A stretch of 64,000 nt of DNA, taken from positions 434,001 to 498,000 of the forward strand of contig JAVKOQ020000004.1 in the NCBI GenBank assembly GCA_031835245.2, written 5' to 3'. Both the position numbers and the translations under genes were made by a program. Shown one piece after another: positions 8,401-34,340 of the stretch. Source of the stretch: Balamuthia mandrillaris (lineage: Eukaryota). Under the pieces are notes generated by a model. The model searched no databases. It had not been told where the DNA came from and worked only from the letters and a program-made list of their open reading frames with translations. Within the stretch, counting starts at the first letter, position 1, and each line of letters begins with the position of its first letter.

Positions 8401-8706
8401 GAGAGAGAGAGAGAGAGAGCTTACATTTTTGATGGCTTTCACCGAGATGCCGGCCCTCTCACAGACCCTTCTGGCGAGGCCGTCGTTGTCGGCAAACAAG
8501 GCGGTAGCCAGGTGGACCGGCATCAGGCGGGCGTTGCCCTGGCTCTGCGCCAAGGCGACCGCGTTGTTCAACATCTCGACCGTCTTCTGAGTGAAGGTGT
8601 TGGGGTCGACGCCCCATTGGGCCGCCACCATGGAGCGGTGGGGCAGGAACCCGACCGCACAAAAGAGGACGAAAAGGATGGCCGGCATCTTTCGAAATGA
8701 AGTCAT
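5480..8706 (-). CDS. clpB/HSP101: ClpB/Hsp101 AAA+ disaggregase (4 exons, about 8706-8423, 8169-7694, 7613-7136, 7074-5480) with a signal-peptide-like N-terminal extension
   Basis: [14 protein letters not shown], Walker A GEPGVGKT and GPTGVGKT, Walker B LFIDEIH and LLDEIEKAH, pore loops GAKYRG and GYVGY, and a coiled-coil M-domain. Confidence 0.96.
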
Positions 8707-9708: not shown

Positions 9709-10241
9709 ATGTCGACAAAAAAAGATGCGGACAGCAGCTCCACCTCCTCCTCGGCGGCAGCGCCAGCGCCAGAGTCGCTCGCCAAATCAGAGGACGTCTC
9801 CAAAGTGGAGCTCGAGAGCGTGAACCGCCCCATCTTCCTCGTCAAGATGCCCGTCTTTGTGGCCAAGCACTGGCACAACCTCCCGCCAGGCGCTGAATTG
9901 GGGCGCGTCACCATGCCAGAGGAATTCTTCGCCATCACGGAGGCCGTCGGGCGTGAGATGAGCCCCAGTGCCAAGAGCCAGACGGGGGAAGTGCGCAAGA
10001 GGAAGATCGCAGAGGAGGCGGAGAACCTGAGGAAGCTCTCTGGGGCGGAGCTGCAGATCACCGCCCCTGAAATTTTGCAGCAGGGCACTTATCCTGATAG
10101 ACACACGCTGAAGATCCAATCCGTGCCGAACCCTTCTTACTGTTTCATCGAAGGTTCAAATTTGCTCTTCTATCTTAGCTCACTTTCTTTTGTGGTTCCT
10201 CTTCTTGTTACCCCTCTTCTTCTTGTTGATGTTGTTGCCGT

Positions 10242-10324
<83 letters not shown>

Positions 10325-11093
10325 CATATGTTGTTGCTGTTCTTGCTGTTCTTGTTCTTCTTCTTCTTCTTCTTCTTCTTCTTCTTCTTCTTCTTCTTCT
10401 TGTTCTTCTTCTTCTTCTCCTTACTAACTTTTCAATCAAACTTTTATCTCTTCAGAGCGACAAAAGAAAAGAGTAAAGATGCAAGGCACAGTAGCAGCGC
10501 GAATGATATGCGAGCCACATGACACCAAGACCTACCGCACCCTTGTCAAGAACCGCCAGGAGGCCTCCGAACAAGTGACGATGTTCCTACGGCCCTACGA
10601 CGATAGTGAGCCGGCCTCTCAGCCAAAACCTTTCACTCGACAGGCGCCAAAGAAAGCCGAAGCGCCCGACAAGAAGACGCGCCTCGATAGACAAGACCTC
10701 ATCAACCTGCTGTTCTTGCACTTTGAACAGAAGCCTTATTGGACGCTCAAGGATTTGTTGCACGTTACTAAGCAGCCAACGGTTTGTACTTTCATTCTTT
10801 TCGACCTGAAACTTTTGGCATTCGGTTTTCTTTTCATTTTTCTATTCCCTATTTCTGTTGAACTCTCTCGTTCTCTTTTTCGGTTTTCGTTATCTTTTAT
10901 CATTCCTTTTTCTTTTTCTTTCGTTGGAGATAAAGCTAACAACGCAACACAAAACCAAACAAAAAAGGTGTGGTTGAAGCAAATATTGACAGAGTTATGC
11001 ACCATCAACAAGAAAGGTCCTAATAAGAACAAATGGGAACTGAAACCAGAATACAAACAACGAGGCGGTGGGGATGAGGCTGGTGCTGGATGA
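9709..11093 (+). CDS. GTF2F2: Transcription initiation factor IIF beta subunit (RAP30), 3 exons
   Basis: N-terminal IFLVKMPVFVAKHW. C-terminal winged helix RLDRQDLINLLFLHFEQKPYWTLKDL..TKQPT|VWLKQIL..KGPNKNKWELKPEYK. Confidence 0.9.
10242..10420. repeat. Intronic (TTG)n plus (TTC)n microsatellite
   Basis: Lies in TFIIF beta intron 1. Similar compound tracts occur at 3431-3595, 13095-13270, 16140-16300 and 31190-31306. Confidence 0.9.
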
Positions 11094-11297
11094 GCGCTTG
11101 TCTTCCGGTCTTTTTATCACCACCACCTTGTTTATTTTGCTTTTTTTTTTTCGGTCCAAAAATTCTCTTTTCACATAGACATGAGAGCGTATAGGTGAGA
11201 GCGCACCATATTCAGGACGACACGAAATTAAAGGATCACGTCGTCCCAGTCGCAAATTATCGGGACGACGTGGAAATGGATTAAAAAGAAAGAAAGA

Positions 11298-12252
11298 ATG
11301 AGCGGAGCAGAACGGCTGTGCCGTGGTGGCGATTTGCTTCTTCTTCTGCTCAATGGGCTCCTTCTGGTGCTCAGCAGCTGCGAGGCATACGGCCTGACAC
11401 AGATGTCCTCCTGTCGGCAGTGTCAGAGCGTCAAGGTCTCGCCGCCCGTGTTTTGCTCCAACTATGTCAACTACTCCCATTGCATCTCTTGCTCTTCCCA
11501 CGAGATCGACCCCTCGCTGCCTGATTGTGCGAATACCACTGTGTCTGATGACAGGGCCCTCAAGATCTACCAGCAGTACGTTGGTGACATAGAGAAAGTC
11601 GGTCAGTTCTCTCTCTCATTCTCTCTGCTCTATTTCGCTCTTTCTCCGCTTCGCTCTTCTTCTCTCTGTCACTCTCGCTTCTCTCTCTCTCTCTCTCTCT
11701 TCTTTCGCTCTCGCTTCTCTTTTTCTCTTCGTCTCCTCTCTCCTTATTTGTGTTACCAGTGAAACAAGATCCGCTCCCCGACGACTGCTTGGACACTATC
11801 AAACGAATGTCCTGCTTCAGCTCCTTTCCTGACTGCCACGAGCACCACGAGCACGCCTTTGTGGGACCCTGTCAGAAGACCTGTCTGGAAATGGTGAAGG
11901 CCTGCCGCCTCGAGGAGACCTACTTTCGTGATAACTGCTATCTGACGTGGCAGACTTACGACTGCGTGGAAGGGCCAGCTGGCAGTGATGCTCAACGGGG
12001 GTGGAATGCCTTGCCTGGTTTGCTTTCTTCTTCTTTTTCTTCTTCTTCTTCTTCTTTTTCTCTTTCTCAGTGTAATGTTTGGGAATTAACTGTGGTATAG
12101 AAGCATTACAGGTGTTCATCATAGTGGCATCCGTATTGACTGGTATCATCCTGTTGTTCATGTGTGGAGTGGGCAGCCTCATCGCTGTCAAGCGTTACGA
12201 GATAAGGAGCATTCAAAACGAGGAACGGAGATCTTTGTTGAACCACTCATAA
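11298..12252 (+). CDS. Type I membrane protein with a Frizzled-like cysteine-rich domain
   Basis: Signal peptide. Cys pattern DCLDTIKRMSCFSSFPDC..GPCQKTCLEMVKAC. Single TM segment VFIIVASVLTGIILLFMCGVGSLIAV. Tail ends EERRSLLNHS*. Confidence 0.65.
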
Positions 12253-12333
12253 CCCTCTTATCTCTCTCATCCTCCTTTCTCTCTTCTTTTTCTTTCAACA
12301 AAATGTCTTCATTTTTGTACAGTTTTTGTTGGA

Positions 12334-12510
12334 TTACTTGAGAGGTTGCGTCATGGCAAAAACCTCACGAAAAGCATCCTGGTCGACGCTTACCGTGATG
12401 AACGTGTTGGACCCAGGTGATGGATTGCAGCCCCATCCTCTCCCTTTTCCTTCTTTGGTTTCATACATCTCCACTGTAGTATTTGTTTTTTGTGAGAACT
12501 TCTTTCTTCT

Positions 12511-12553
<43 letters not shown>

Positions 12554-12758
12554 AAATGAAACCTTCAGCAAAGGTGGCTATAGAAGGATCGATGGCAATG
12601 CAGGCTGCCAACGGGTCGTGCAACGCCTTCTCACTCTTTCGCTCAAAGTAGCATTCCATTGCTTCATAAATAAACTGCAAACCTTTTAACAGAAGAAAAG
12701 AACAAGTCAAAACAAAGAACGAAAAGAAAAGAAGGAACGAGAGGAGAGATACAAGGAA

Positions 12759-12800
<42 letters not shown>

Positions 12801-14033
12801 TTCACTATCTTTGATATATGGTTTAAGAAAACGGTGAAAGTCGGCATCGTAGAGCACGCCGTGACAAACGTTCTTGGAGACCAGCACTCGCTGCTGCACT
12901 CGCTCCGAGGTGAGCATCGCCATTGCGCTTCTCCGGTCTCCTCCAAAATTAAAGGTTGGACAAACAGTCTTTCCGTTGAACTTTTCCAAGCGGTGCTCTG
13001 TTGTTTGTAAAAGAAGAGAATGAATGTCAAAAAAAGAAGTAAGTACCGAAGAAACAATAACAAACAACGAAAGGAGGAAGGTGAAGCAGAAAACGAAGAA
13101 GAAGAAGAAGAAGAAGAAGAAGAAGAAGAAGAACAAGAAGAACAAGAAGAAGAACAAGAAGAAGAACAAGAACAACAACAAGAACAAGAACAACAACAAC
13201 AACAACAACAAGAACAACAACAACAAGCAGAAGAAGAACAAGAGGAAGAACAAGAAGACAAGAAGACAAAGTAGATAGGAACAAGAACAAGACACGAAGA
13301 GCAACAAAGAGAAAAAGGAACAAACCAGGAGGAACAATGTTATCTCCAGCGAAGCCACCCTGCGCCACCCATCGCCGAATCCGAACGTCCGGATAGGCCT
13401 CCAACAGCTGTCCAAGGTTGCCCAGCGGAGCGCCCGTCACTATGGTAGCCTCTGGATAGCTCTGAAACGTCTTGTAGAGCACATCGCAGCCTCTTCCATC
13501 GGATTCGGCCACGAGCGGACTGGAGAGCCCTAAAGCACGCCAGTGAAAAGCAGAGACGCTGCGTGAAGAAGAAGAAGCAGAAGAAGAGAAGGAACGAGTC
13601 CCGACGGGAATGGAGTGAAGGCGAGAGTCTTTATAGCGACGGAGAGTGTATTTCACTAGCCCTACTTGTTCTCTTGTTCCTTTCAGGTTGGACAAGATAG
13701 AGAACGATGGTTAGAGACGACAGAAACTAAGGAAACAAAGAAGTGACAAGAAAAAAAACAAACAACAAACCAGGAGTAATGGTAACGGCACGAAGACACA
13801 CACTAGGATGACTGGCAAGAAGGCATCTAAAAGGGCAAAAAAAATTGAACGCATGAGCAAAAGTAAGTTTTATTTCCGCACGAAGGGAACACAAAAAAAC
13901 GAGATGCGTACAAAGTCAAATAGTCGTCCGGGTCATTCGTTTCCATGTCGAAGATCACATCCATCTTTTGCGAAAGGTCGCGTCTCAGTTTGACGTATTC
14001 GACTTTGTTGGTTTTCCGTTTCGGTGCCTCCAT
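12334..14033 (-). CDS. Inosine-uridine-preferring nucleoside hydrolase family protein (multi-exon)
   Basis: IFDMETNDPDDYLTL, TIVTGAPLGNL, WVAQGGFAG, PTFNFGGD, SKNVCHGV, ALHDPLAAC. Ends FREVFAMTQPLK*. Confidence 0.85.
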
Positions 14034-14128
14034 CTTTTATGTTTGGATAAAGCTGTTGGCTTTCTTTTCGGATATACAAGAAATAAAAAAAGGGGGTGGT
14101 AGGGCTAAAGGTTTGGACCCAAGGGAGA

Positions 14129-14159
<31 letters not shown>

Positions 14160-14395
14160 GAAAAAGAGAGGAAACAATTCGCTGCATTCCCACATCTGAA
14201 GTTGCACAGCTTGTGCAGAAATGGTGAACGATTTCTTCTGCTCCCTTATTTTTTGCGGACGTTCATGCTGCACAATGAATGCTGTTATTGTGACCACATT
14301 CTGCTCCATTGCAATATTTTTTTGATTTTCTTTATTCCCTCTCTCTCTTCTCTCTCGCTCTCTCTCGCTCTTTTTCTCTCTCTCTCTCTCTTTCG

Positions 14396-15452
14396 TTAAG
14401 CGTTTTGAGTTCGAATAAGCTCATCCAAATGATAATCGAACTTGGCGCAGCGGATGGGTTGTTCCCTCTTGAACTCGTAGAAAGGGTTCTTCAGCACGTA
14501 GTCCGTGTATAACACGTAGATGCTTTGGAGGACCTTGTCCACGTTTGTCCGCTTTGCGTCTGCCGTCATGAAAAACTTGGTCCCTTTTTGTTGAAATGAG
14601 TAAGTTTAGCAAGAGAAGAGGAGAGAAGAGGGGAGGAAAGGAAGAGAGAAGAGAGAAGAGAGAGAGAGAGAGAGGAGAGAGGAGAGAGAAGAGAGAAGAG
14701 AGAGAGAGAAGAGCGAAGAGAGAAGAGAGAAGAGAGAAGAGAGAAGAGAGAAGAGAGAAGAGAGAAGAGAGAAGAGAGGATAGAGGAGAGAGGTTAGAGG
14801 AGAGAGGAGAGAGGAGAGAGAAGAGAGAAGAGAGAAGAGAGAAGAGAGAAGAGAGAAGAGAGAAGAGAGAAGAGAGAAGAGAGAAGAGAGAAGAGAGAAG
14901 AGCGAAGAGCGAAGAGCGAAGAGCGAAGAGAGGAGAAATAGAGAAGTGAACATAGCAAGCAAGAAACAAGAGAGGAATGAGAAGGCCCGAACAAACCAGT
15001 GAGAGTCTGGAAGCAATGCAGCCGGAAGGTGTCTGTCTCCAACACTTCTAGTCCAGTACAATCAGGAACAGGCGACAACTTGCTGGTAAACGTGTGCATG
15101 CTATTTTTGTAGACTGATGATTAGAGGAAAAAAAAAATTGAAAAAAAAGATAAAAATGGTAGAGAAAAAAAAACCAAACCCATAAAGTAGACCACCAAGA
15201 CGAACAGGATCCTCAGCAATAGATACTCCTTCCACAAAATTCTAATCAAATAGAAAAAAAAAGTGTTACCAGCAAACAAATAAATGATAGGATAAGAATC
15301 TTCAAAAAAAAAAAAACAGAATAAAACAAAGAAGGTACCTTTTGGTAAATGAGACCTCCAGACTTGTTGATGATGTAAAGAGAATGAACCAGCGGCTTGT
15401 CAGGGCCGCTCTGCCTGCCTTTGTCAGCTTGTGCTTTCGTCACAAATTCCAT
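14396..15452 (-). CDS. TRAPPC4: TRAPP complex subunit 4 (Trs23/synbindin), 4 exons
   Basis: SLYIINKSGGLIYQK, GLEVLETDTFRLHCFQTLTG|TKFF, YTDYVLKNPFY..PIRCAKFD. Confidence 0.9.
14612..14935. repeat. Intronic AG-rich 5-7-bp satellite (AGAGA/AGAGAAG)n
   Basis: Fills a TRAPPC4 intron and is pyrimidine-rich on the sense strand. Confidence 0.9.
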
Positions 15453-15875
15453 CCTGGCCGCTACCTTTTTTTTTTTGTATTTTTAAAATTTTGTCGACTA
15501 TCATGACGACTCGATCCATCTGGAAGCAAATCGGTATTTCATGAGTGGAAACGGCGAGGAAATGATTGGCAGAAAAAAAGTCCTTGCCGGTCTCTGCTGC
15601 TTTTGGTGCGTCCACAAAGGACTACCGGCAGAGCAAACCATTGCGCATTCCTTGTTCAATTAAAAAAAAAATAAGGCTCAAAAAGAGAAGAGAGAGGAGA
15701 GACACGATGGAGAGCACAACCTCCTGCTTTCCATAAGGTACTGCTCCTGCCGGCATCACAGTAACTCTTTCCAACATAATAAATATGATAACAATATTTT
15801 TTTGTTTTGAAAACAATGCAAATACAAACTTAAAAACGGAAGAGAGAAGCGTTCTTCATCGATGTTGTTATCGTT

Positions 15876-18800
15876 TCAAAGAGGAAGCCGCCAGTCGATG
15901 GGAGTCTTGCCAGAAGCCACCAACAAGCGGTTGGCCTCCGAAAAGTGCTTGCATCCACGAAACGGAACGGACGAGCGAGGGCTTGGATGGCCCGCTTTGA
16001 GAATGTGATGCTTGCTCTGGTCGATGAGCTTCGCTTTGGCTTGAGCCTCTTCTCCCCACAACATAAACACCAATCCCTCTTTCTTCTCGCTTAGCTCGCT
16101 GCAAAATCCGTTAGCAAAGAGGGAAGAGGAAGAGGAAAAAGAAGAGGAAGGAAGGAAGGAAGGAAGGAAGAGGGAAGGAAGGAAGAAGGAAGGAAGGAAG
16201 GAAGGAAGGAAGGAAGGAAGGAAGGAAGGAAGAAGAAGAAAAAGAACAAGAACAAGAAGAAGAACAAGAAGAAGAATAAGAAGAAGAACAAGAAGAAGAA
16301 TAGCGAAACAACGAAAGAGGGAAAGAAAGAGAATACCGAATAACAGTGTCAGTGAAGCGAGTCCATCCTATTTCACGGTGGCTGTTGGGTTTATGTGCCT
16401 CCACTGTCAATACACAATTGAGCATTAGCACACCGTTTAAGGCCCAACTCTCCAAGTTTGCGTGATCTTTGGGTGCCTCGAATCCCTCCACATCTTCCTT
16501 GAGCTCCTCAAAGATGTTCTTCAGACTGGGAGGCAGGTCCTTCTCCAGCGATTGGATCCGTTTGTGGATGCTGAAGCAAAGGCCGTGGGCCAAGCCGGGA
16601 GTGTGATAGGGATCCTGTCCAAGGATCACGCATTTGACTTGTTCGAAAGGAGTCAGTTTGAAGGCAGCCAGAACATCTGCTTTGTTGGCCGGGAAGATGC
16701 GTTTGTTGTTGCCTCGTTCCTCTCGTATTATAAATGCAAGCATGTCATCGAAATAGTCGTCCTCCTCATCTTTACCTTCTTTGTCGCCTTGGATGGCAGT
16801 TCCTTTCCAACCTTCGGGGCAGACCCACCACTCGTCTGCATCGAATTCGCGGGCTTGACACCAGCCAAAGAAGCGAGAAATGGTGCGGAGGTCCTGACTA
16901 AAGTTACGCCCAGCAAAGTACTCGCGGATGGCTTCCAGAGTTTTTCCAGGCGAGCGAGCTTGTTGTTGTCCTTCCTCCATCCAATGTTTAATCTGATCCA
17001 CTTCTGCCAGAGTCAGGCCTGTCTTCTCCGCCACGTGAGCAGGTGCGCAAGGATGTTCTGCTAGCGTGTTTGGGGACAGCAAGGCCAACGCGGAGTAGAC
17101 GCGTCCTTTTTGCCATTGGCTGACGTTCTTGCCTTCCTCTCCTGCCATAAAGCGATAGAACGAATGGTAGAATTGTTCGGCGGTGGGTTGACTGCCATCC
17201 ATAGCTCTCATGCTGAGGCCCACACGAGGACAACAGAAGATCTTTCTCCTTTTGAACAGGCCTTGTCGTTGTGGCGGTTGGATCTCACTTTCGTTTGCTT
17301 TGTCCTTCTCCTCCTCTTGCTTCTCCAACCTGTCCTCCTTTTCATGATAATTATAAGAGAGGTAAAGCAAACGTGGAGCGAAGAGCCAAGACCCAGTGTT
17401 GCCCACAGCAAAGTCAAAGCGGGGATGAGCGACTAAAGCGTCGATACTGGGGCAGCCCGTCTCTTCCAGCAGTTGGTTGACTACCACACACGGTCCTTCG
17501 AAGAACGCTCCATCCCGTACGCGTTCCACTGCTCGAATGAGCACCCCACCGTAGACCTCTCTCCCCTTTTCTTCTTCCTCTTCTTGTTCTTCTTCCTCTT
17601 CTTCTTGTTTCTTGGTTTTGGTCTGTTGGTAAACGCTTCCTTCTTCCTTGATCTTATCCTTCAAGATTGAGCCAAAAGTAATGTCCAAGCCCTTGAAGTT
17701 GCCATCTCGATACTTGCCATCCGGTTGTTGATGGAAGTACCAACGACCAGCCAAGCGTTGCATGGGATTCTTGTGAGTGAAGATGTCCTCGTGCCTCGAG
17801 GAGAAGAAATAAAACTCCACTTCTCGCAGTCGGTAGAGCTCATCGTTGGGGCCAACATGTAACACACATCCGTTCATCAGCCGTTCCGCCACTTTTGTGA
17901 AGTGTTGATGAAAGTGGTGAGGAAGAAAGAAGCGAGATGACGTGCTCAGCAGGCCATTCACCAGCATCGCATGATCTCGCCCAGTGGTCTCCACAAGTTT
18001 CCTCTCCAAATGGGGAATGGCGAAGGTATCACAGTTCGACAGCCATCGATAGAACCCACGCACCAGAGGCATCACCGACCCATTCGATGCCAGAAGATAC
18101 CAATCAGGCAAATGAGTGGCGGACAGTTCGAAGCGAGACCGGCGATGATGCCAAGTTGCTCCGTCCGTGATAACCTTCAACGGAGTAGCATGCGAGTGTT
18201 TCACAATCGACACTTTGCTTTTTCCTTTCTGTGTTTTTCCTTTGCTTGCACTTTCCTCTTCTGCCATCGCGTCCTCTTCTGAAGATGATGTGGTGGGAGA
18301 GGAGGGAGCTGCAGATGAGCGATGAAGGAGTTCCATGCGATGTGCTCTTTCTTTTCTTCTTCTCATCTTGCGAACCTCTTTTTTCTTCATAAGCAAACCC
18401 GTCCGAGGGTCACGCTCTTCTCCGTATTCGTCGTCCCCGTCTTCACTCTCGCTCGATGAGGAAGCCTCCTTCAATTTTCTGCGTTTAACAACCCGCTTTC
18501 TTGCTCTACACTTCACTTCGCTTTTCTTCAACAACAGGCCTGTTTTCTCGTCCCGTTGTTCGCTGTACTCATCGTCACTGTCCTCCTCTTCCTCTTCACT
18601 GACGGCAGAAGCCTTCTTCGATTTTCTGTGTTTGCCACCCTTCATTCTTGCTCTTCGTTTCACTTCGCTTTTCTTCAACAACAGGCCTGTTTTCTCGTCC
18701 CGCTGTTCACTGTACTCATCGTCACCATCCTCCTCCTCACTGGATGCTGCATTTCTTCTTTTCTTGCTTCGCTTTACGCTATGTTCTCGTCTGCGTACTT

Positions 18801-21800
18801 CACTTTTCTTCAACAACAGGCCTGTTTTCTCGTCCCTTTGTTCGCTGTACTCATCATCGCTATCCTCTTCCTCATCACTGGCCTTCTCTTCATACTCATC
18901 ATCGCTACGATCCGAATCTTCTTCAAATTGTTCACTCTCTACATCATATTCTTCCAACTCTTCTCCATCGATGCTTCCCTCTTTCGCCAACAGCCACAGT
19001 AAACCGTTGGCTGACTGAATGGAACTCTCGCTGCTTACGAACGAAGCGGAAGAGGAAGAGGAAGAGGAGGAAGAAGAAGAAGAAGAAGAAGAAGAAGAAG
19101 AAGAAGAACAAGAAGAAGAAGAAGAAGAAGAAGAACAAGAAGAAGTAGAGCTACTGGTGCCGTCCTCAGTAGCCTTTTCCTGTCGACGCAGCTTTCGAGC
19201 ATACTTCTTCGCTTCAACAGCAGTGGTTGGGGTAAGACCTGGAACCACAATTGCGAAGCCTCGTTTTGCATACTTTAACAACCGTCGCGCGTAGCTTGGG
19301 CTCAGTCTGAAAGGATCCACAACATTAATGCTCATGGCAGAAGCGATGAGGGCACGATAATGAGCCCAGACATGGCAACCGTCGTAGGCCACAGCACAGC
19401 AATCCAAGTCGAATCCAGACAGCAGCTCCGTCACACTGTTCATCAAGTACAACACGATTTGGATGGGAGGAATGGCCACAGGTTTCGTAGCGATAGTAGA
19501 GCTGGAAGAAACATCGGAGTTGGTTCGAACATCTATCACCTTCAAGCCTTTCACAGGAGAATAGGGCGTGTCGCACATCTCGCATCTCTTTCGTTTCTGC
19601 TCGTGGCGGAAGGTGCACACACTGCACGTCCATTCCTTGTTCATCTTCTCCGCTGTCTCTTTCTGGGATGAGAATTGTTGTGTCTCATTGCTTCGTGGAA
19701 GTAGTGTGATGGTATGGCTTCTACACTTCCAATCGTAGGCCACACCTTGTTCATTAAGGCGAGTCGTAACCTTGTTCAATACTTCTTCCATTTTGAGGGC
19801 GGCTTCCTGGGAGTCGGTGCTGCAGATGAATACATCGATATCGCTCTGCGACTTGCCCTTGGCACGGTTCCACAGGGGCCATCGCCTATGGAATGGCATC
19901 ATGCAGCGAAGCACAGAACCGCCTGCCACGCATACCTTGCCCGGTTCCAAAACGTCGTCCAACACACCGTGTGTCATTTGCTTCCAATTGCTAAGAAACT
20001 GTTGTTTCGATCGAACATAGCATTGCTGTCGCAGTTCCTCTTCCTTTTGCTGTCTTTCTTTTGTCATAGCTTCCTCTTGCCGTTTGTTGGCTTGTACAGC
20101 AGCAGGAGAAGGGCGAAGGATTCGATCATCCACGATGAGGCCCCAATGCTTGCCTCTGCCAATCATCCAAGTTATGCGATGACCAGCGTTGGCCAGCTCG
20201 GCATAAACGGAATCGGTCTTGTTCTTGTTTTGCTCGATGTACGTCACCTCTGCCACCTGAACAAAACGACATCCTGCCTTCTCACTAGTGGATAACTCGT
20301 ATTTTTGTCCCTCGATCGTAACGTGCGTCTGCTGTGTGTCATGAATGGCTTTGTGGATGGTTTCCAGAAAGGAATCCTGAGAAAGAGGTTCTCCTCTGCG
20401 TGGTCGTTCGCCCACTGCACCATCACTGACCTGCATGGCGTCTTCTCCCTCCATCAGTCCCGCTGAGGAAGCTCCACCGCTGGACGTCTTTGCAAGGTAG
20501 TCCGTTGCTTGAAGGTAGCACAGTCCTTTTATCAGGCGCTCGATGTCCATAACTTGTGCCAGGCGTAGATGAGCTCCTTGACTCTCCTTCGCCAAAGCTG
20601 CATAAAACGAATCCGCGTAGTGGTGTTGGCCACATTGCACACCGTAGACATGGATGCCCAGAGCCGTCAATTGGTTAAGCTCTTCACGCCAGTCCAACTC
20701 CACCTCTTTTCCTCCGGACTCTGTGCCTTTCTCGTGTGGAATGTCATCTCCGATGACCACCAGGGCTTTCATTGCCGATGGAGTCCAGCTCAGCGTACGA
20801 GCATCTTTCAAAGCAAGCTCGTAACATTCTGCTGAATCGCCCCCGCCAGTGGAGCCCACGCCCTGAACAAAGTCGCAAAGGCGGTCGGGATCGTTAGAGA
20901 AGTCCAATCGCTTCAGCACGTACTGTTCGCGATCGCAATAATCTCCATGAGCGATGATGGCGATGCGAAGAGAAGGGAGGTCCAGCAGCAGGGATTGCAC
21001 CAAGAACTTCAGGCTTTTGCGAACTTGAGCGAGGTAGCAAAACATGGAACCCGTAGTGTCAAAAGAGAAGCAAATCTCCAATTGAGCTTCCTCCTCTTCC
21101 TTCTGTTTGTCTTCGTCTACCGTCACATTCTCCTCTTCATCCTCTTCACCATCCGCGTCATCGTCTAGATTCAGTTGTTCTGCATTCGCTGTTGATGGTG
21201 GTGATGTAAGAGCCCCAGCGAAATGGAAGATGCCAGCTTCCGCATCGTGATGAACCAAAGCAAAGGCGTTACGTTTTTGTTGCTTAGTGGAGGGAGTGCA
21301 AGCAGCCATTTCCTTCTGTTGCCACTCTTTCAGCCAGTTTGGCCGCTGTTGTGCCAGAAAATCATCTCTCTCGCCCAACGTTCTCTTTCCGGTCGGATCG
21401 CACAGCACCACCAGCTTCCTGTTGTCACGGATGATGGAATCAAGTGAAGAGGATCCAGTTTCTTTCAGACGAGGCGCTCTATACCAGGGGATTTGCCCAG
21501 AACTCGAGGGGGATGTTAAGCTGGTCGCTTCATTCTCCTTCTCCTTCGCTTTCTCCTTCTCTCGTTGTTTGCCATCACGACCACCACCAAAGAATGGAAT
21601 AACAAGTTGACGCTCCAACAATGAGAGGCCGTCTTCTTCATCTTCCAGAACCATCTTCTTCTTTCTCTTCTTGGTGCCACCTGTCCTATTCGTCTTCTCC
21701 ACTCTATTCCAAAGGCGACTGTGCAGAACGAGGGCATCCAAGTCTCGAAAGCCACGAATACAGTCATTTAGGCGCAACTGGCTGAGAAGATGTTCCTGAA

Positions 21801-22545
21801 AGAAAACGTGGCGAAGCAGATATCCGTGCCACAAAGCGAGCATGGGAGGGCCCCACAACTTGTATGATGCCGACTTGCCGCAGACTAACAGGGTTTTGCT
21901 GGGGCACAGGTTTGCTTGTGTGTCCTTTAGCCGGTCGTTGGAAACAGGAGATCGGCGAAGTGCTGGTACGTCGTCTTCTAAAAGCAAAAGGACTGCTGCT
22001 TCATGTTGTTTGCTTGAAGAAGAAGAAGAAGAAGGAAAGAGGTTTGATGAATCGTGTTCATCAAGCGGAGGAAATAGCTTTTCCCAATAGTACGTGCGGT
22101 GGGCACACAGCGGTTTCGCCAAGAGTGGAAGGCGGCGCCCTGTTATGCCAATGGCCTTACGTGATCCTTCAGGGGTAGAAAGGTATTTGTCCAGCTGGAT
22201 GGCAGCAGCGTTGAAAGCCATAACGTAGACGGTGGTTCCAGGAAGCGCCTCGGTGGTGGGCAGCGCTTCCGGCTTTGCTTCTTTCTTCGAGAGAACATTT
22301 TTCTTACCCACTGCTCTGCCTTGCAAAGCGCAAACGAAACCCCATTCGGTTTCACCATACCAGCGATGCATAGGGAACTGATTATGGACCAAAACCTCCA
22401 CTTCCGACCGAGGCAAGGCCGCCACCTTGCGGTTCACCCACGCCACCGGGTCTTTGTCCAACCGCTCATCGTCTATGATGCCCTCTTCCAGAAAGAGGGA
22501 ACAAGGCGCCACTTCTTTGGGCGGTTTGGTGTACAGGTTATCCAT
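15876..22545 (-). CDS. Giant multidomain protein: GT-like(?), vWA, nucleotidyltransferase with RanBP2 finger, acidic repeats, MPG-like glycosylase, uracil-DNA glycosylase. One ~6.2-kb exon plus a last exon ~16100-15876.
   Basis: First ATG at 22545. vWA: FSFDTTGSM, GGGDSAECYE, VVIGDDIPH. NTase: VAGGSVL, SDIDVF, FDLDCC, RLLKYAKRGF. Finger: WTCSVCTF..CEMC. MPG-like: EVEFY, KGLDITFG, GGVLIRA, EGP, RVGL. UDG: VILGQDPYH, PPSLKNI, VLMLNCVLTV, VFMLWG, HPSP. Confidence 0.88.
18375..18865 (-). repeat. Four in-frame coding repeats, DDEYSEQRDEKTGLLLKKSEV (last copy DDEYGEERDPRTGLLMKKKEV), about 135-150 bp apart
   Basis: Near-identical nucleotide blocks (cttttcttcaacaacaggcctgttttctcgtccc..ttc.ctgtactcatc) at about 18521, 18668 and 18803, with a diverged copy at about 18380. 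Confidence 0.9.
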
Positions 22546-22776
22546 CCCCAGAGAGACTGTGTGTGTGTGGTCGCAGTGTACGTGTTGCAGCTTCAAGATC
22601 TTGCCCTCGCGTCGACAACCAACGAGACACGCGACACCAGCGCACTCAAATATTTTTTCCTGGAAATACAAAAATTTTTGTGATTTATGCCGACATTTTC
22701 AAGGGACCCTCGTCTACTTTATTTTTTTGTTTTGATTATGGGCAAGTCTGAGGAGGCATAATGTTGGACTCTGCGT

Positions 22777-25700
22777 TCAGTCGCTGTCAGAAGACGAGGA
22801 GGAGCTTTCTTCCTCTTCGTCTTTGGTTGAGGCTTGGCTATCCTCCTCTTCTTCTTCTTCTTCTTCTTCGGATTCGCTGCTGCTACTGTTTTCGCTGTCA
22901 TCCTCCTCTTGAGCCTTGGCTTCTTGTTCCGGATCTTTCTCTTCCTTTTGTTCCTCATTCTCGTCTTCTCTCTCTTCCGTTTCGTCTGCTTCCTCTGCTT
23001 CCTCCTCCTCGCTGCTACTGCTGCTCTCAACGGTTGAGGAAGAGTGCTGGTTTTCTCCTTCTCCCTCATCCTCTTCTTCGCTGCTACTTTCGTCGTCGCT
23101 ATCTTTATGCACCGTATTTACTTCTTCTCCGTCTTCTCTGCCTTCATTATTGCTGGGTTCTTCGGGTTTGTTGGTGCTTTCTTCCTCTTCCTGTTTCCTT
23201 GTTTCTTCCTCTATCTTGGCTATCTCTTCTTCCTGCTTCTTCGCTTCTTCCTCCTCGCCCAATTTGGACGCGGACTGCGTCTTTTCGGCCAGAGTGATTC
23301 TCCTCAGCCTCTCCTGCAACTTCTGTTCGACCTCGTTCATGGGAGGAGGCGAACCGCCCTGCGCCTCGCCTTTGTCAGGCGCAGTCGCTCGCCGCCGTAG
23401 GTGAGATGGCTGCAGAGAACCCGACCCTGTGCCATGCCTCTTCAACAAGTGAACACCAAAGCTGTTGCCACTGCCTGACTCACGGGCAGAGGAGGAAGTG
23501 GACGGGGTGGAGGAGCTGTCTGCTTGTTGGTCATGTTCTGCTCTGGTGGCCCTCAACTTGGGGAAGGAAAGCACTCCTTTCTCCTCGGGTTGGTTCTTCT
23601 TTTCCTCCGGGGGTGGTCCTGTGGAGACTTTCTTCAGCTCAAGGCAGCCAACACTGCCGAGAATCCAGGGCCAGAGTCGCTGGTGGAGGTGCCATTGCTG
23701 TTGTTGGTGTTGGGAGTGGTCTTCTTCAGCTGCACGTTGCCCAATCCTGCCAGCAGGTTACCTAAAGAAGGCGGTGCTGCAGCAGGGGCCGGCTTGGGTG
23801 GAGCGCTGCCAGAGGAGGGACGTTTTAGTGCAGCCAAACCGCCAGCGATCTTCAGAGGAGCGCCGCCTGCTGGTGGAGGTGGTGGAGGACCAGCCCCTGG
23901 AGGAGGCGGAGGAGCACCTCCTCCGCTGGGGGGTGGTGGGGGTGCTCCCATCGGTGGTGGTGGTGGCGCTCCTCCCATTGGTGGCGGCGGGGCAGCTGCA
24001 GCCATCAGAGGTGCTCCTGATCCAGCAGGGGTTGCCTTGGGATCCATCTCTCGCATGAGGTTGGTCATTGCCTCGGTGGCACGCTTCAGGGCGGTTACAT
24101 TAGGCTCCTCGGACCCGATGCAGAGGCGGTCAGCGCTGCGCAAACAATTACCAGCGCTGCTGCAGAATACCTTGACGTAAGGGTAAAGCCCTTCCCACAG
24201 TTTGGCGAGGGCCTTGGACTCGGCGGACAGCAGCTGAGCCTCGTCCTCTGCGCCTTTTTTGCCCGCAACAACTTCCTTTAGCTCGTTGTCGGTCTTCTCT
24301 ACAAAAGTTTTCAGGCCTTTCAAATCGTCAGTGCCCAGGCTGGCTATCCTCTTTTCTTTCCTGGTGGATATTTGGGAGCCAGAGGCAAAACTACCGATAC
24401 TGCTGCTGCTGCTATTTGAGGGATTCCAAAGAGCAAGACTTCTTCTCTTGGAGGAAGAAGTTGCCTTTCTTTTCTTGGCTTCCTCCTTCCGATCTACTGC
24501 TATGGTTGTGCCTGCCTTCTTTTTCTTCTTTTTCTTCGCCCCATCTGATCCTTTAGTTGCAGGCTTCTTTACTTTCTCTTCTTTGGAAAGTGCCTTTTCT
24601 CTTTCTTCCTTCTCCTTTTTCTCTTTCTCTTCTTTTTCTTTTCTTTCTTTTTCTTCACGTTCTCTTTGCTCTGCTTCTTCCTTCTCCTCCCTTTCTTTCT
24701 TTTCTCTTTCTTCTTGTTCCTTTCTCTCTCTTTCCTGGCGTTCTTTTATTTCTCTTTCTTCTTGTTCCTTTCTTTCTCTTTCCTCGCGCTCCTTTGTTTC
24801 TCTCTCCTCGTTTTCTTTCCTTAACCTTTCCTGCTCTTCTCGTTCTGCTTTTTCTTTCTTTTCTTGTTCTGCCTTGGCGCGAGCTTCGGCTTCTTCATTT
24901 CCTTTTGTCTCCCCTTTCTCATCTTCGTCTTCGCTTGAACTAGAACTTTCCTCGCTAGAAGAGTCTTCTTCATCGTCCCTTTGCTCTGGTTCAGCTGACT
25001 CTTTATCTTTTTGCTCTTTCTCTTCTTCTTTTATGTCTTCGGCTTCGCTTTGTTCCTTCTTCGCCGAGCCGTCAGCTTCTTCTGTTGGCATAATTGTTTC
25101 GGTAACTTGCTCTTCCTGCTTCTCTTCTTCTTTGGCTTTGATAAGCTGGCGAACTTCTGTTTCTTCCTTGCTTTCTGGGTCTTCTATTGTGCTCTTTTCT
25201 TCGCTTTCCGTTTCTTCCTCTTCTTTCTGTTCTACCTCTCCATTTGCGTTTGCATGTGTCTCGATATCTTCCTCTGTCTTATCGTCCTCGCTTTCTTCTG
25301 ACTCTGAGTCCTTCTGCCCTTCGGCCTGTGCCTCTTCAGTTGCTTTCTCCGTGGATTGCTCGTCGTCATCTCCATCGTCCTCTGACTTGTCTTCATCGGA
25401 GACATGCCCATTGGTAGTATGCGTGGACTCTTCAACCACCTTATGTTGTTCCTCTTCTTCAAGCTCGGATTGTTGCTGTTGTTGGACCTCTCGCTCTTGT
25501 TGGTTCTCTTCTTGGGCATCCTTTTCTTCGGTGGAAGTGCCCTCCTTGCGATTGGAGGAGGCTGTCCCTTTATCCTCGTCCTCGCTCTCTGACTCGGAGG
25601 AAGAGGAAGAAGACGAGTCACTGCTGGATTCGGCTTTTCTGCGAGCTGCGGCTTCCTCCTCTTCTTTCTTCTTTCTAGCTGCCTCTGCCGCTGCTGCCTT

Positions 25701-26288
25701 CTTCTCTGCCTCCTTTCTTTCCTTCTTCTCTCGTTTCCTTTCCTTTTCCTGTCGCTCCTTTTCTTCCCTCTCCCGCTCCTCCCTCTCTTTTTGGTCCTTT
25801 TCCTCCTTGGAGCGGGCGCTGGCCAGACTGGTTTGCTCCTTGTCCTTCTTCTTTTTCTTCTTGTCGCTGGTGGCTGCCTTGAGCTTCTTTCCAAAGGCAG
25901 CGCTGATGGTAGCCGCTTTTTTATCCTTCACCTTGCTGCCTCCTTTGGAGCTGCTGTGGTGTTGTCCGCTGGAGGTAGTTCTGTTTTTTTCTCTCACGGT
26001 GCCCCGCTCTTTCTTCTTGGAGGAAGGAGAGGAAGAGGCAGGAGAGGAAGAGGACTGGTTGTTACTTCGTCCTTTGGGGCTCTTGACCTTCTCCTTCTCT
26101 TTCTTGCCATTGGTGGCTCGTTTCAAGTCCAACTCGGGTTGTATCTCTGAGCCCTTGCTCTTTCCTACGCTGTTAAACTTTTTGGTCTTCTCCTTCTTCT
26201 TTGTGGCTTTCTTTTCGTCTTTCTCCCTTTCCTTTTCCTTGGGCTTTTTCTTTTTGTGCTCCTTTTTCAGCTTGCCCGAGCCGTCCAT
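22777..26288 (-). CDS. Large charged low-complexity protein with poly-proline and WH2-like LKK motifs (putative actin regulator), split by an apparent frameshift at ~23640
   Basis: K/E-rich N-half, a helical region, then PPPPMGGAPPPPP repeats, LLAGLGNVQLKKT, ELKKVST and FPKLRAT. Two long ORFs abut in different frames. Confidence 0.65.
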
Positions 26289-26927
26289 TCTTCAAGTCGT
26301 TTTCCACCACAAGAAACAACCTTTTTCTCGCTTCACAACTATGAAAAAGCTTTTCTGTGCGTGTTGAATACCAAAACTTATTCACTTATTGTACAGGTAG
26401 CGTGCTTTTACAGGCCTTTCGGTTCCAAGGTTGACAAGAGTGCAAATCCTCTGGTGGTCTCCTCCAAAGACACACGTATTTCGCCGTTTAGAAAAAAAAA
26501 TATATGGTCACTTCTCTACAGTCAAAGAGAAGACGACTTTTCTCGGGCAACCAACTCTCGTCAGCGGTTCCCCCCCACAGGCAGCGAAACCTGGACAGTT
26601 TTGTTAGCGCCGGGGCACCTCCCCCCCGTCCCACAAGAAAAAGGCAACTTATGGGAGGGTCGCCGATTAGTCCGAAGCTGTTTGGTTAAAAACGGGCAAC
26701 CCTCGTTTTGCTGAGATCTGATCGATTCTACCCGAACACGTCAGTATACCGTAAGGTTACGTCATATCTTCTACAAAAAGGAAAAGTCCAAATCAGCTTT
26801 TTGTCGACAAAATCCCTCCCCATTGCTTCCTCCGTTTCCTTTGCTACATTTTTTGTAGCAGTCTTCAGTTCACACACCACAACCAACGCGCACACAGCTG
26901 AGAGGGAGCGTGAAATAAGATACAAAG

Positions 26928-28223
26928 ATGGCATCCACCGATCAGTGGTTGTCGACCCTGTCCTTCGAGACCCTCTTCCAGGATTTCCTCCATTACCTGC
27001 GGAACGGCTCCCCCATGGATGAGACCATTCTCAACGTGTCCGCCGCGATCATGGTGCTCTGCTCCCTGCCCACTTTCCTCGCGCTGGTCTTTGGCACCGC
27101 CGCTCCCTACGGACGCTACGCCCCGGAAGCCAAGTCCATCGTGTACAAGCCGCAGCTCAATGCCAAGTTTGCTTGGTTCGTGCAAGAAGTACCTTCTTTC
27201 CTTGTTGCCGCTGCTCTCGGCTATTTTGGTTCGTTCCTTCTTGTACTCATTGTTCTTGTTCTTCTTTTTCTTTTTCTTCTTGTGCTTCTTGTCTGCTTAT
27301 TGGTGTTTTTCTGTTTGTACTGTTTGTTCTTGTTCTTGTTATTCTTCTTCTTCTTTCTTCTTTCTTCTTTCTTCTTTCTTCTTTCTTCTTTCTTCTTTCT
27401 TCTTCTTCTTCTCCTGCTTCCTTCTGCCTTCTGCCTTCTTCCTTCTGCCTTCTTTCTTCTTTCTTCTTTCTTCTTCCTGCTTCCTGCTCCCTGCTCCCTG
27501 CTTCCTTCTTCCTTCTTAGTTTCTTCTCACTCTTTCTTTAAAAAAAACAGGTAAAGAAGAATGCATGTCTTCGACGGTAAATCGCATTTTGTTGGGTTTG
27601 TACTTGACCCACTACTTCCAACGCTCCTTTATCTTCCCTTTCCTGATACGTGGAGGGAAGCCCACGCCAGTGTTGCTGTGCCTGATGGCTTTTGGCTTTT
27701 GCATGTGGAACGGCTTCCAACAGGGCCGCTACTTGACTCACTACTACACCTACGATGAGAGCTGGCTCTCTCACCCTATGTTCATTATCGGTACCTCTTT
27801 CTTTATCTTATTCTCTTCTTCTTCTCCTTCTTCTTCTTCTCCTCCTCCGTTTCTTCTCTTTCGTTTCTGTATCTTTCTAATATTTTTTTAACAATTCAAA
27901 TAGGAGTAATCATGTTCGTTTCAGGTATGGCCATCAACATCCACAGCGACCATATCCTGCGAAACTTGCGAAAGCCTGGAGAGCAGGGCTATAAAATCCC
28001 TCGTGGCGGCATGTTCGAGTACGTCTCTGGCGCCAACTTTTTTGGAGAGATTTTGGAGTGGGCAGGCTTTGCCGTGTGCAACCCCTCACCCCCGGCCATT
28101 GCCTTTGCCTTTTTCACCTTTTGCAACATTGGTCCAAGGGGCAAGCAGCATCATGAGTGGTACCTGAAGAAGTTTGAGAACTACCCCAAGGGACGCAAAG
28201 GGGTCATCCCTTTCCTTTGGTAA
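26928..28223 (+). CDS. SRD5A: 3-oxo-5-alpha-steroid 4-dehydrogenase (SRD5A/DET2-like), 3 exons
   Basis: APYGRY, AWFVQEVPSF, HYFQRSFIFPF, INIHSDHILRNLRKPG..YKIPRGGMFEYVSGANFFGEILEW, HHEWY, RKGVIPFLW*. Confidence 0.94.
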
Positions 28224-28351
28224 CAGAGAGAGACAAATCTTTTTTTCTTGTGTGTTTTTTTAATATTTATAATTCTTCACGGTTTAAGTTCATAGGAACT
28301 CCCATTTGACAAAAACCATCATCTTCGTTGCTCTCTAGGCTTCTCTCTCCG

Positions 28352-28407
<56 letters not shown>

Positions 28408-28907
28408 CACTGCGTGCACCCCAAGCAATGGATTATTTGGGATGTTTTATCAACAATCGAAAAAGTGTATCGACAACCACGACAAATAGTTGAACAAATT
28501 AAAATAATCCAATAAAAGAAAGGATAGGAAAGGAGATAGGAGATAGGAGCGAAAAAAAAACGGCGTGGAGCTGCACCCCACAAAGGTGACCACCAACAAA
28601 AAGGACCGACCTGAAGCATTGGGTGGTGGTGTCCTCTTTGGTGTCTTCTCTCTTGTCTTTTTTTTTTATTTATTCTTGACCAGTATACTTTTCTCTCTCT
28701 CTCCTCAGCTACATACTACACTCTGATCTTTTTTTTTTGTGAAAACATATCTTACCCATCTGAACCGCCACACAGAGATAGCTAACACCAAAAAAAAAAA
28801 ACCTAATCAAACAGAAGCTGGCACATCAGATCAAACTACGAAAAAAAAATATATACGCCAGAGAGAGAGAGAGAGAGGAGAACAAAAGAAACCAAAACCA
28901 TCCAAGA

Positions 28908-29522
28908 ATGTGGACTAAGCCACAAGGCTTACAACGCAAAGAACAACTGCGGTGGGTGCACGACGGTGGCGGCAGTGGTGGAAGTAGCAGCGCTGGCTCC
29001 GACTTCGCGCCCTCAAGCCGTCTCTGGCGGAACCACCCGCGCTGCAGCCAAAACGACTACTTCTTGTTGCAATGCAGCGGTGGCAGAGGAGAGGACGAGC
29101 AGGACCCTTTGCTGCGGGCGGAGGATCAGCTAAAGGAACGGCAGTGGCTGCCCACGTGGCGGATAGTCCTGTTGATGGCATCTTTGCGAGAAGGAGAGGA
29201 GGAAGAGGAGGTAGAAGAAGAGCAAAAGAAGAAAAAGAAGAAGAACAAGAAGAAAGAGAAAAAGGATAAACAAGAGAAAAAGAATGACAACAATGTGGCG
29301 GTTGTTGTGGCAGAGGCAGAGGAGGAGCAGTCCATTTTGGAGGCCTGGGCGTTTATTGAGGCCAACATCATGCCCAAGATAGAGCTCATTGTCATGGAGG
29401 AAGTGGAGGAGGCCAACCAGCGCCAACACAAATCGTCAGAGCAGTCGTTGGGGCAGAAAATCGACACTTTCCTTCTGCTACAGTTCCAGGTTCTTTTCTC
29501 CTCTTCGCCACGCTTTCTCTCC

Positions 29523-29553
<31 letters not shown>

Positions 29554-31225: not shown

Positions 31226-31257
<32 letters not shown>

Positions 31258-32399: not shown

Positions 32400-32432
<33 letters not shown>

Positions 32433-33212: not shown

Positions 33213-33252
<40 letters not shown>

Positions 33253-34302: not shown

Positions 34303-34340
<38 letters not shown>

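What the first reader, a model, noticed from the sequence alone, without database searches (positions are those of the whole stretch)
15876..22545. ~2140-aa polyprotein fusing two DNA glycosylase-type domains with a nucleotidyltransferase and vWA
Seen in one reading frame: vWA with a DTTGS MIDAS (~21085-20510); a small QN..S.YA..GH.I.W module (~20370-20115); a Pol-beta-superfamily nucleotidyltransferase (GGS..DID, FDLDCC, RLLKY..RGF; ~20000-19240); an MPG/AAG-like domain (EVEFY, HEDIFTH, GLDITFG, GGVLIRA, EGP, RVGL; ~17910-17150); and a family-1 UDG with intact GQDPYH. Knowledge: UNG and MPG are normally small standalone base-excision enzymes. Inference: this may be an undescribed all-in-one base excision/tagging machine for repair or for defence against modified (e.g. 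uracil-containing) foreign DNA. A single 6.2-kb exon in an intron-rich genome suggests recent assembly or lateral (possibly giant-virus) input.
Basis: partly seen in the sequence, partly recalled or inferred. Interest (0 to 1): 0.9.

Follow-up and report, generated by a model that had tools for sequence, protein, structure and literature searches.

The report
Giant two-glycosylase nucleotidyltransferase fusion protein
One real, spliced eukaryotic gene joins a standard uracil-removing DNA repair enzyme to an unnamed relative of the alkylpurine repair enzyme and a tRNA-tailing-type nucleotide transferase; the enzyme half recurs in a second eukaryote, and the protein likely removes uracil plus a second, still unknown kind of altered base from DNA.

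Summary
One 2,143-aa minus-strand protein is encoded, with a single 238-nt intron whose splice appears in a run's contig. Order: unknown N-terminus, vWA, small QN module, nucleotidyltransferase with a zinc-finger insert, acidic/basic repeats, AAG-fold domain plus HTH, family-1 UNG.

The AAG-fold domain (Z 14.1 to human AAG) is not canonical MPG. It belongs to an unnamed family (3,208 clusters; bacteria, giant viruses, amoebae, fungi). It keeps the catalytic Glu, Tyr, His and Arg, but has Asp in 149 of 149 sequences where AAG has its selectivity Asn169. The transferase is Gad2-like with a class II CCA/poly(A)-type fold, not a gap-filling polymerase.

A metagenome contig from another eukaryote (L105) carries the same transferase-repeat-AAG-like-UNG order at 36-68% identity. 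The fusion is therefore neither an assembly chimera nor recent. Its vWA half is seen only in this species. Giant-virus origin is neither shown nor rejected.

Best reading: a base-excision initiation platform for the cell's own DNA with an extra specificity (0.5). Antiviral use is the main rival (0.25). No activity was tested.

The parts
16337..22545 (-). Exon 1 of the fusion gene (aa 1-2070, 6.2 kb)
   Evidence: RNA-run reads and contigs along it
16099..16336 (-). 238-nt GT..AG intron inside the UNG domain
   Evidence: spliced contig in run X1 (table 5); absent in L105
15876..16098 (-). Exon 2: UNG C-terminal part (VFMLWG, GHPSPRS loop) and stop
21106..22545 (-). N-terminal region (~480 aa), fold and family unidentified
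   Evidence: no meaningful hit in Pfam, NCBIfam, PHROGs, PADLOC, PDB sequences or 201 Myxococcota genomes; covered by X1/X2 contigs and RNA reads
20476..21078 (-). vWA domain with DTTGS MIDAS, of a cyanobacterial/large-phage type
   Evidence: PF00092 25.2 bits, above the 23.8 cut-off; 49-51% identical to cyanobacterial proteins, 45% to a phage protein
20101..20340 (-). Small QN..S.Y..GH module; a mobile domain also found C-terminal on TIR proteins
   Evidence: 2 of 201 Planctomycetota genomes, E about 2e-6; TIR_2 plus weak DUF7132 in those proteins
19216..20010 (-). Gad2-like (PF26128) nucleotidyltransferase, class II CCA/poly(A)-polymerase head-neck fold; AGGS..DxD (D902, D904), GFDxD, RLxKY..RG
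19564..19638 (-). RanBP2-type zinc finger inserted in the transferase
   Evidence: PF00641 E 8.5e-5, below cut-off; absent from the aligned relatives
18360..18858 (-). Four DDEYxExRDxxTGLLxKK repeats with basic clusters (likely nuclear import or chromatin contact; inferred)
   Evidence: aa 1230, 1275, 1324, 1371; two strict matches in L105 and a third similar copy visible in its translation
17941..18240 (-). Conserved unassigned segment before the AAG-like domain
   Evidence: 45% identity over 67 aa to L105; no PHROGs hit
17104..17958 (-). AAG/MPG-fold domain of an unnamed family: E1577, Y1579, D1587, H1591, R1671, R1774 kept; D1621 at the Asn169 position
16837..17103 (-). HTH plus C-terminal helices belonging to the AAG-like family
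   Evidence: HTH_23 in 37 of 149 members; helices in the model
16337..16780 (-). Family-1 uracil-DNA glycosylase, N-terminal two thirds (GQDPYH, HGLCFS, PPSL, LMLN)
   Evidence: TIGR00628 E 1e-44; PDB UNGs to E 5e-38

Best explanation
This is one gene whose protein likely acts as a nuclear base-excision initiation platform: an intact-looking UNG predicted to remove uracil, and an AAG-fold domain predicted to remove a different, amino-bearing damaged or modified base, tethered to a CCA-type transferase that would add nucleotides to 3' ends without a template. Shown: one ORF, the splice, the folds, the kept catalytic residues, the Asn-to-Asp pocket change, and the same transferase-repeat-AAG-like-UNG order in a second eukaryote. 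Inferred: (1) both glycosylases flip out bases and leave abasic sites, and the added HTH helps hold DNA. (2) Asp at the position where AAG's Asn169 excludes guanine would favour a base with an exocyclic amino group (a damaged or modified guanine, or a cytosine-like lesion). (3) The natural Arg in the UNG intercalation loop would hold the product site longer. (4) Host AP endonuclease and ligase must finish the repair, because neither domain was detected here. (5) The transferase tags or tails the resulting 3'-OH (or a bound RNA) rather than filling the gap, with vWA, zinc finger and repeats as scaffold and localisation parts.
For: Single ORF and splice. Independent DNA contigs with about 3% other letters span UNG to repeats (16332-18541) and transferase to N-terminus (19157-21903). 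Of the 40 listed variant places (of 235), 19 of 23 in catalytic domains are synonymous, against 9 of 17 in the acidic region. L105 has the same order without introns; best-segment identities are 68% (NT), 36% (AAG-like) and 62-69% (UNG). The two form a 100-supported pair. AAG fold: the top nine Foldseek rows are human AAG; Z 14.1, rmsd 2.9 over 167 residues. E/Y/D/H/R match AAG E125/Y127/D132/H136/R182 (roles from passages of PMC3075667). Asp in 149 of 149 family rows against Asn in 31 of 31 canonical MPGs. UNG scores 1e-32 to 5e-38 against cellular enzymes. Repair-type context: neighbours of bacterial family members are mostly housekeeping genes, and 13 of 143 hit PADLOC, nearly all through generic domains. 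One giant-virus contig has UNG beside the AAG-like gene (L010, 1 of 19). The 8 best cyanobacterial vWA relatives all adjoin NAD-dependent DNA ligase (related genomes, not independent).
Against: No activity was tested and no substrate is known for the family. The transferase resembles RNA-tailing enzymes (Z 11.8 to a tRNA-processing enzyme, about 5 to Pol beta), so a DNA-repair role for it is unsupported. It also departs from near-invariant family residues (R to Y1033, Y to M1035, E to A1086, each otherwise kept in 35 of 37 rows). The family is patchy (3 of 81 Myxococcota against 34 of 81 for canonical MPG), and 2 of 5 carriers tested also have canonical MPG. Among 289 loci held, only L105 joins any two of these domains in one ORF. 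The vWA half is not shown in L105, whose contig starts inside the transferase. The wedge residue (AAG Tyr162) could not be mapped unambiguously.
Confidence: 0.5

Rival explanations
1. Antiviral effector: the two glycosylases attack uracil-rich or base-modified foreign DNA (giant viruses, engulfed bacteria), and the transferase tags the broken DNA or a protein as a signal.
For: The parts are mobile and conflict-linked. The transferase family includes the phage anti-defence protein Gad2 (passages of 10.1101/2023.05.01.538930) and is expanded in giant viruses, including vWA-transferase proteins of Hokovirus and Yasminevirus. The QN module sits on TIR proteins. The vWA type is common in large phages (42 loci). 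The AAG-like family is patchy. Defence glycosylases Brig and Dag are a precedent (passages of 10.1101/2025.10.29.685425).
Against: No defence-island context for bacterial family members. No meaningful PADLOC hit for the window's domains or four family members. Giant viruses themselves carry the AAG-like gene (19 loci). The UNG is of ordinary cellular type.
Confidence: 0.25
2. Loosely coupled bead-string: an ordinary housekeeping UNG that has collected horizontally gained domains. The transferase acts on RNA or protein (or is partly degenerate), independently of the glycosylases.
For: The domains occur apart almost everywhere. The transferase family fuses promiscuously with ankyrin, BTB and vWA domains. 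Long low-complexity linkers separate the domains. The transferase has three unusual substitutions.
Against: The order, the repeats and an unassigned linker segment are kept between two deeply diverged eukaryotes. All metal-binding and core residues of the transferase are intact.
Confidence: 0.2
3. Artefact: an assembly chimera or read-through of separate genes.
For: No listed read or contig bridges the Ser microsatellite at about 19020-19156, and no piece spans the whole gene.
Against: There is no stop in 2,070 codons. Independent contigs bridge every other domain junction. L105 joins transferase, AAG-like domain and UNG in one ORF.
Confidence: 0.04

Closest known systems
Human AAG / MPG family (PF02245)
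   Same: Same fold (Z 14.1, rmsd 2.9, 167 residues); catalytic Glu, stacking Tyr and His, Arg182, GP and RVG motifs kept.
   Different: No PF02245 hit for the window domain; 62 of 149 relatives hit at E up to 0.05, best 1e-8. Invariant Asp for Asn169; the YVYxIYG hairpin is replaced by WYFH..YRxGxFK; extra HTH and helices; fused.
Family-1 uracil-DNA glycosylase (UNG, TIGR00628)
   Same: GQDPYH, HGLCFS, PPSL, LMLN and HPSP motifs all present.
   Different: It is the C-terminus of a 2143-aa protein. The intercalation loop reads HPSPRS, the same as PDB 4skn, which I recall to be the engineered L272R/D145N human enzyme; a passage of PMC3260424 says that double mutant stabilises the enzyme-substrate complex. 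L105 has Met there.
Gad2 family nucleotidyltransferases (PF26128) and class II CCA-adding / poly(A) polymerases
   Same: All three sequence relatives found carry PF26128. The atlas's nearest clusters are Gad2 (0.88, a lead only). Head-neck fold Z 11.8; GG..DxD intact.
   Different: Zinc-finger insert and three substitutions at near-invariant sites. The region aligned to CCA enzymes covers only their first ~200 residues. Relatives fuse to ankyrin, BTB or vWA domains rather than glycosylases. Gad2's activity is itself only predicted.
Klosneuvirus-type vWA-transferase proteins (Hokovirus A0A1V0SG41 and A0A1V0SF85; Yasminevirus A0A5K0UBH1 and A0A5K0U836)
   Same: Named VWFA-domain proteins that match the transferase model (E 4e-8 to 3e-7).
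   Different: 14-15% identity; their vWA type and domain order were not examined; no glycosylase is indicated in their names.
Defence glycosylases Brig1/Brig2 (UDG superfamily) and Dag1/Dag2 (HhH)
   Same: Precedent for glycosylases used against modified viral DNA.
   Different: Different folds or families; standalone bacterial proteins. The terms AAG, alkyladenine and methylpurine do not occur in the main text of the Dag preprint.

Membership tests
Family-1 UNG | Profile match and GQDPY water-activating loop | tested here: met
   TIGR00628 152.9 bits on the exon-1 part alone (cut-off 185.75 for a whole protein); exon 2 matches UNG structures at 5e-21
Family-1 UNG | Uracil pocket Tyr/Phe/Asn and HPSP His | tested here: met
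   GQDPYH, HGLCFS, LMLN, GHPSP
Family-1 UNG | Leu in the intercalation loop (HPSPLS) | tested here: not met
   Arg in the window, Met in L105
Family-1 UNG | Uracil excision activity | not testable with these tools
   needs assay
AAG/MPG superfamily (fold) | AAG fold | tested here: met
AAG/MPG superfamily (fold) | Catalytic Glu, Tyr127, His136, Arg182 | tested here: met
   E1577, Y1579, H1591, R1671; hhalign probability 96-98%
Canonical MPG (PF02245) | Score above the Pfam cut-off | tested here: not met
   no hit for the window domain at E up to 10
Canonical MPG (PF02245) | Asn169, strictly conserved (PMC3075667 passage) | tested here: not met
   Asp in 149 of 149 rows against Asn in 31 of 31
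Canonical MPG (PF02245) | Intercalating Tyr162 hairpin | tested here: inconclusive
   this segment is remodelled; the hhalign register and the secondary-structure register disagree
Pol-beta nucleotidyltransferase superfamily | hG[GS]..DxD motif and fold | tested here: met
Gad2 family (PF26128) | Direct profile match | tested here: inconclusive
   the Pfam scans gave no PF26128 row even for three proteins that carry it precomputed, so the profile appears to be missing from that copy; indirect support
X-family gap-filling polymerase (Pol beta proper) | Closest fold among transferases; 8-kDa lyase, fingers and thumb domains | tested here: inconclusive
   Z about 5 to Pol beta against 11.8 to class II enzymes; only a weak palm hit, E 0.034
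vWA | Profile match and MIDAS DxSxS-type motif | tested here: met
   PF00092 above cut-off; DTTGS
Antiviral defence glycosylase | Defence-island context of relatives | tested here: not met
   13 of 143 neighbours from 41 loci hit PADLOC, nearly all through generic domains; no control set was run
Antiviral defence glycosylase | Protection against virus | not testable with these tools
   needs infection assay

The most novel reading that the evidence does not exclude
The AAG-like domain defines a widespread, unstudied glycosylase family whose Asp pocket recognises a modified guanine- or cytosine-type base. The fusion is then a eukaryotic excise-and-tag antiviral machine: two glycosylases damage uracil-rich or modified viral DNA, and a Gad2-like transferase nucleotidylates the product or a partner. 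It would be built from the same parts that giant viruses carry separately.
Probability: 0.2. Interest if true: 0.92.

Novelty: new variant of a known kind. Interest (0 to 1): 0.7.

Why it matters
It exposes two untested enzyme families in one protein. The first is an AAG-fold family of more than 3,000 sequence clusters with a fixed change at the residue that sets AAG's base selectivity; engineered MPG variants are already used in base editors (titles and abstract starts). The second is the eukaryotic and giant-virus branch of Gad2-like transferases. Small standalone bacterial members (~280 aa) make the substrate question directly testable. The fusion to a bona fide UNG, kept in two distant eukaryotes, is the clearest contextual link I found between both families and DNA base processing.

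Tried and rejected
No whole genome is held, so I could not test whether this is the organism's only UNG or whether it has a canonical MPG.

A search for long relatives (750-2387 aa) using the transferase C-half found none among 40 candidates; this is weak evidence. Viral scans with the single transferase or vWA+module sequence found nothing. tblastn of the transferase against phages found nothing. The QN module was not found in 251 Myxococcota genomes, and no match among 151 cyanobacterial genomes covered it. The profile of the AAG-like family does not reach human AAG by sequence. No Rfam match in 10000-30000. No holder run is on record as RNA.

The first tree lost L105 through a frame error in my script. 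It was rebuilt on 60 rows after leaving out 28 redundant rows and two partial proteins (quick method). In that tree the fusion pair lies outside the 97-supported group that holds 13 of 15 viral rows. Fusion plus all viruses is still one side of a branch against bacteria and archamoebae, at support 53, so origin is unresolved.

I considered by eye that the Ser tract might be an in-frame intron, or that a 31-nt GC-AG intron might extend the N-terminus upstream of 22545. Splice phases do not fit the first and neither is shown; I did not test the second.

Literature searches for Balamuthia + UDG, Acanthamoeba + transferase + vWA + glycosylase and a divergent MPG-like HTH family returned 0 papers. 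Searches listed none describing this protein. Earlier-findings look-ups were empty. No complex prediction was run.
Full report
Observation. The minus strand holds a 2195-codon open frame, 16111..22698, with the first ATG at 22545; shuffles gave at most 256 aa. Removing a 238-nt GT..AG intron (16336..16099) gives 2143 aa ending at 15876. Run X1 (listed as 'RNA?, a guess') has contigs that skip this intron and three others nearby, so it behaves like a transcript assembly. Two RNA-Seq runs with the same species label laid 96 and 111 reads on the 10-kb stretch from the 3-5% of each run that was read. Depth was about 1 over most of the gene, and about a third of the reads ran on unlike the stretch. 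This indicates low-level transcription without giving strand or a single transcript. Contigs of run X2, with about 3% other letters, span 16332-18541 and 19157-21903. X1 contigs span 16460-17190, 17376-18573 and 19811-20857. The indels shown keep the frame (18 letters in all at 17311-17323, and 3-letter events elsewhere; 13 more rows were not shown). Of 40 listed variants (of 235), 19 of 23 in the catalytic domains are synonymous. The only junction with no listed bridge is the Ser microsatellite near 19020-19156. The host is an intron-rich eukaryote; that it is an amoeba is my recalled impression, not tested, as no genome is held.

UNG. The C-terminal domain is family-1 UNG: TIGR00628 E 1e-44, and bacterial, protist and animal UNG structures at E 1e-32 to 5e-38. 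Three entries named 'probable UDG' (which I recall as mimivirus) score only about 4e-7. All pocket motifs are present. The intercalation loop is HPSPRS, identical there to PDB 4skn; a passage of PMC3260424 states that the L272R/D145N mutant stabilises the enzyme-substrate complex. That 4skn is this mutant is recalled.

AAG-like domain. Pfam does not call it MPG. It has 24 relatives in the word search, and a profile finds 3208 clusters at E up to 0.001. The best 150 are mostly standalone proteins of about 280 aa. Members come from Planctomycetota, Myxococcota, Cyanobacteriota and others (80 of 146 loci kept), 19 viral contigs, many labelled as giant-virus MAGs, Pelomyxa, Mastigamoeba and a basidiomycete. 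62 of 149 aligned members hit PF02245 at E up to 0.05, and 37 hit HTH_23. The AlphaFold model (pLDDT 83) matches human AAG as the top nine Foldseek rows, with Z 14.1 and rmsd 2.9 over 167 residues; the next unrelated fold is at Z 4. Profile alignment to 31 canonical MPGs (probability 96-98%), with human numbering, maps E1577, Y1579, D1587, H1591 and R1671 to E125, Y127, D132, H136 and R182. It puts D1621 on Asn169: Asp in 149 of 149 rows against Asn in 31 of 31. Passages of PMC3075667 give E125 as the catalytic base, Y127 and H136 as stacking residues, and Asn169 as strictly conserved. Passages of PMC5363859 say Asn169 suppresses guanine excision. I infer an active glycosylase with a different base preference. 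The hairpin that carries AAG's wedge Tyr162 is remodelled and could not be mapped with confidence.

Transferase. The three relatives found first all carry PF26128, which the atlas names Gad2 (score 0.88, a lead). Passages of bioRxiv 10.1101/2023.05.01.538930 describe Gad2 as a phage anti-Gabija protein with a predicted transferase domain (supplements not seen). A model from 37 rows (pLDDT 72) matches class II CCA-adding and tRNA-processing enzymes best (Z 11.8, rmsd 3.1, 163 residues; Pol beta about 5; Foldseek best E 1.8e-3). It also matches 107 viral models at E up to 0.001, including ankyrin, BTB and vWA fusions of giant viruses. GG, DxD, GFD and RLxKY..RG are intact. Three near-invariant sites differ; two of the changes are shared with L105, and the third lies outside its contig. 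A RanBP2-type zinc finger is inserted.

vWA and small parts. The vWA is 49-51% identical to standalone cyanobacterial proteins (8 such matches among 151 genomes), all 8 beside NAD-dependent DNA ligase. It is up to 49% identical to proteins of 42 viral loci. The QN module recurs at the C-terminus of TIR proteins in 2 of 201 Planctomycetota genomes. The N-terminal 480 aa remain unassigned.

Conservation of the fusion. The metagenome scan returned L105 (4086 bp). Its 1029-codon frame begins inside the transferase and continues without introns through the same repeats, the linker segment, the AAG-like domain and UNG. The next gene is a cysteinyl-tRNA synthetase broken by stops, read as introns, hence eukaryotic. 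Window and L105 share only two short DNA patches (71-77%) and form a 100-supported pair with long branches. Three partial, intron-like database proteins resemble the same clade; two of them were in the first tree and grouped with the window at support 80. Whether they are fused is unknown. Among all 289 loci held, L105 is the only ORF with more than one of these domains. Two viral loci have two domain types as separate genes (L010 UNG, L018 transferases). So the enzyme half of the fusion is old and lineage-restricted, and the vWA half is documented only in this species.

Origin. GC and GC3 fall within the range of other long ORFs in the window. The AAG-like tree neither shows nor rejects a viral source. 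Best viral and non-viral scores are close for the vWA, transferase and AAG-like domains. Ancient lateral gain of modules is plausible; recent insertion is not supported.

Mechanism. I favour a platform that starts base excision on the cell's own DNA with two specificities, hands the abasic site to host enzymes, and carries a template-independent tailing or tagging activity (0.5). Points for this reading: an ordinary UNG, viruses keeping the AAG-like gene, and housekeeping surroundings in bacteria. 13 of 143 neighbours from 41 loci hit PADLOC, nearly all through generic methyltransferase, protease, kinase, desulfurase, ankyrin or MotB domains, and no control set was run. Points against: the transferase looks like an RNA-tailing enzyme, and several parts have conflict associations, which supports the antiviral rival (0.25; passages of bioRxiv 10.1101/2025.10.29.685425, give precedent in other folds; supplements not seen). 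Independent domains on one chain (0.2) and artefact (0.04) follow.

Novelty. Each fold is known. Neither the architecture nor the AAG-like family was found described in the held library, which lacks most subscription journals. PMC7824862 was read only as passages and added nothing specific; the other papers were seen as listings. Verdict: a new variant of known kinds, real, conserved and experimentally tractable; interest 0.7.

Noticed in passing
L214-L221: Cyanobacterial vWA proteins (~355 aa, with a C-terminal domain not present in the window protein) adjoin NAD-dependent DNA ligase in 8 of 8 loci; the same vWA type is common in large phages (L248-L289).
   Followed up: partly
L230:973-1704, L231:970-1701: TIR-domain proteins of two Planctomycetota genomes end in the QN module (weak DUF7132 match); a possible sensor or partner-binding domain.
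   Followed up: partly
L010:7242-8657: Viral contig with a UNG gene divergently adjacent to the standalone AAG-like gene.
   Followed up: partly
L018:2968-8744: Viral contig with two tandem Gad2-like transferase genes close to the AAG-like gene.
   Followed up: partly
P0052: Basidiomycete protein with two tandem copies of the AAG-like domain (736 aa).
   Followed up: no
window 12390-14420 (-): Intron-split inosine-uridine nucleoside hydrolase-like gene two genes downstream (PF01156, weak); probably unrelated.
   Followed up: no
window 14500-15452 (-): Small spliced gene directly downstream (two introns skipped in run X1); resembles a TRAPP/sybindin subunit from recall.
   Followed up: no
window 22777-26291 (-): Upstream gene: long acidic, proline-rich protein with WH2-like segments (by eye; no Pfam hit).
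   Followed up: no
window 5480-8420 (-), 29920-34355 (+), 48934-49836 (+): ClpB chaperone, GRAM/TBC Rab-GAP and SET-domain genes: ordinary eukaryotic context.
   Followed up: no
window 22546-22698 (-): The frame stays open for 51 codons upstream of the first ATG and is Cys/His-rich; an upstream exon cannot be excluded.
   Followed up: no
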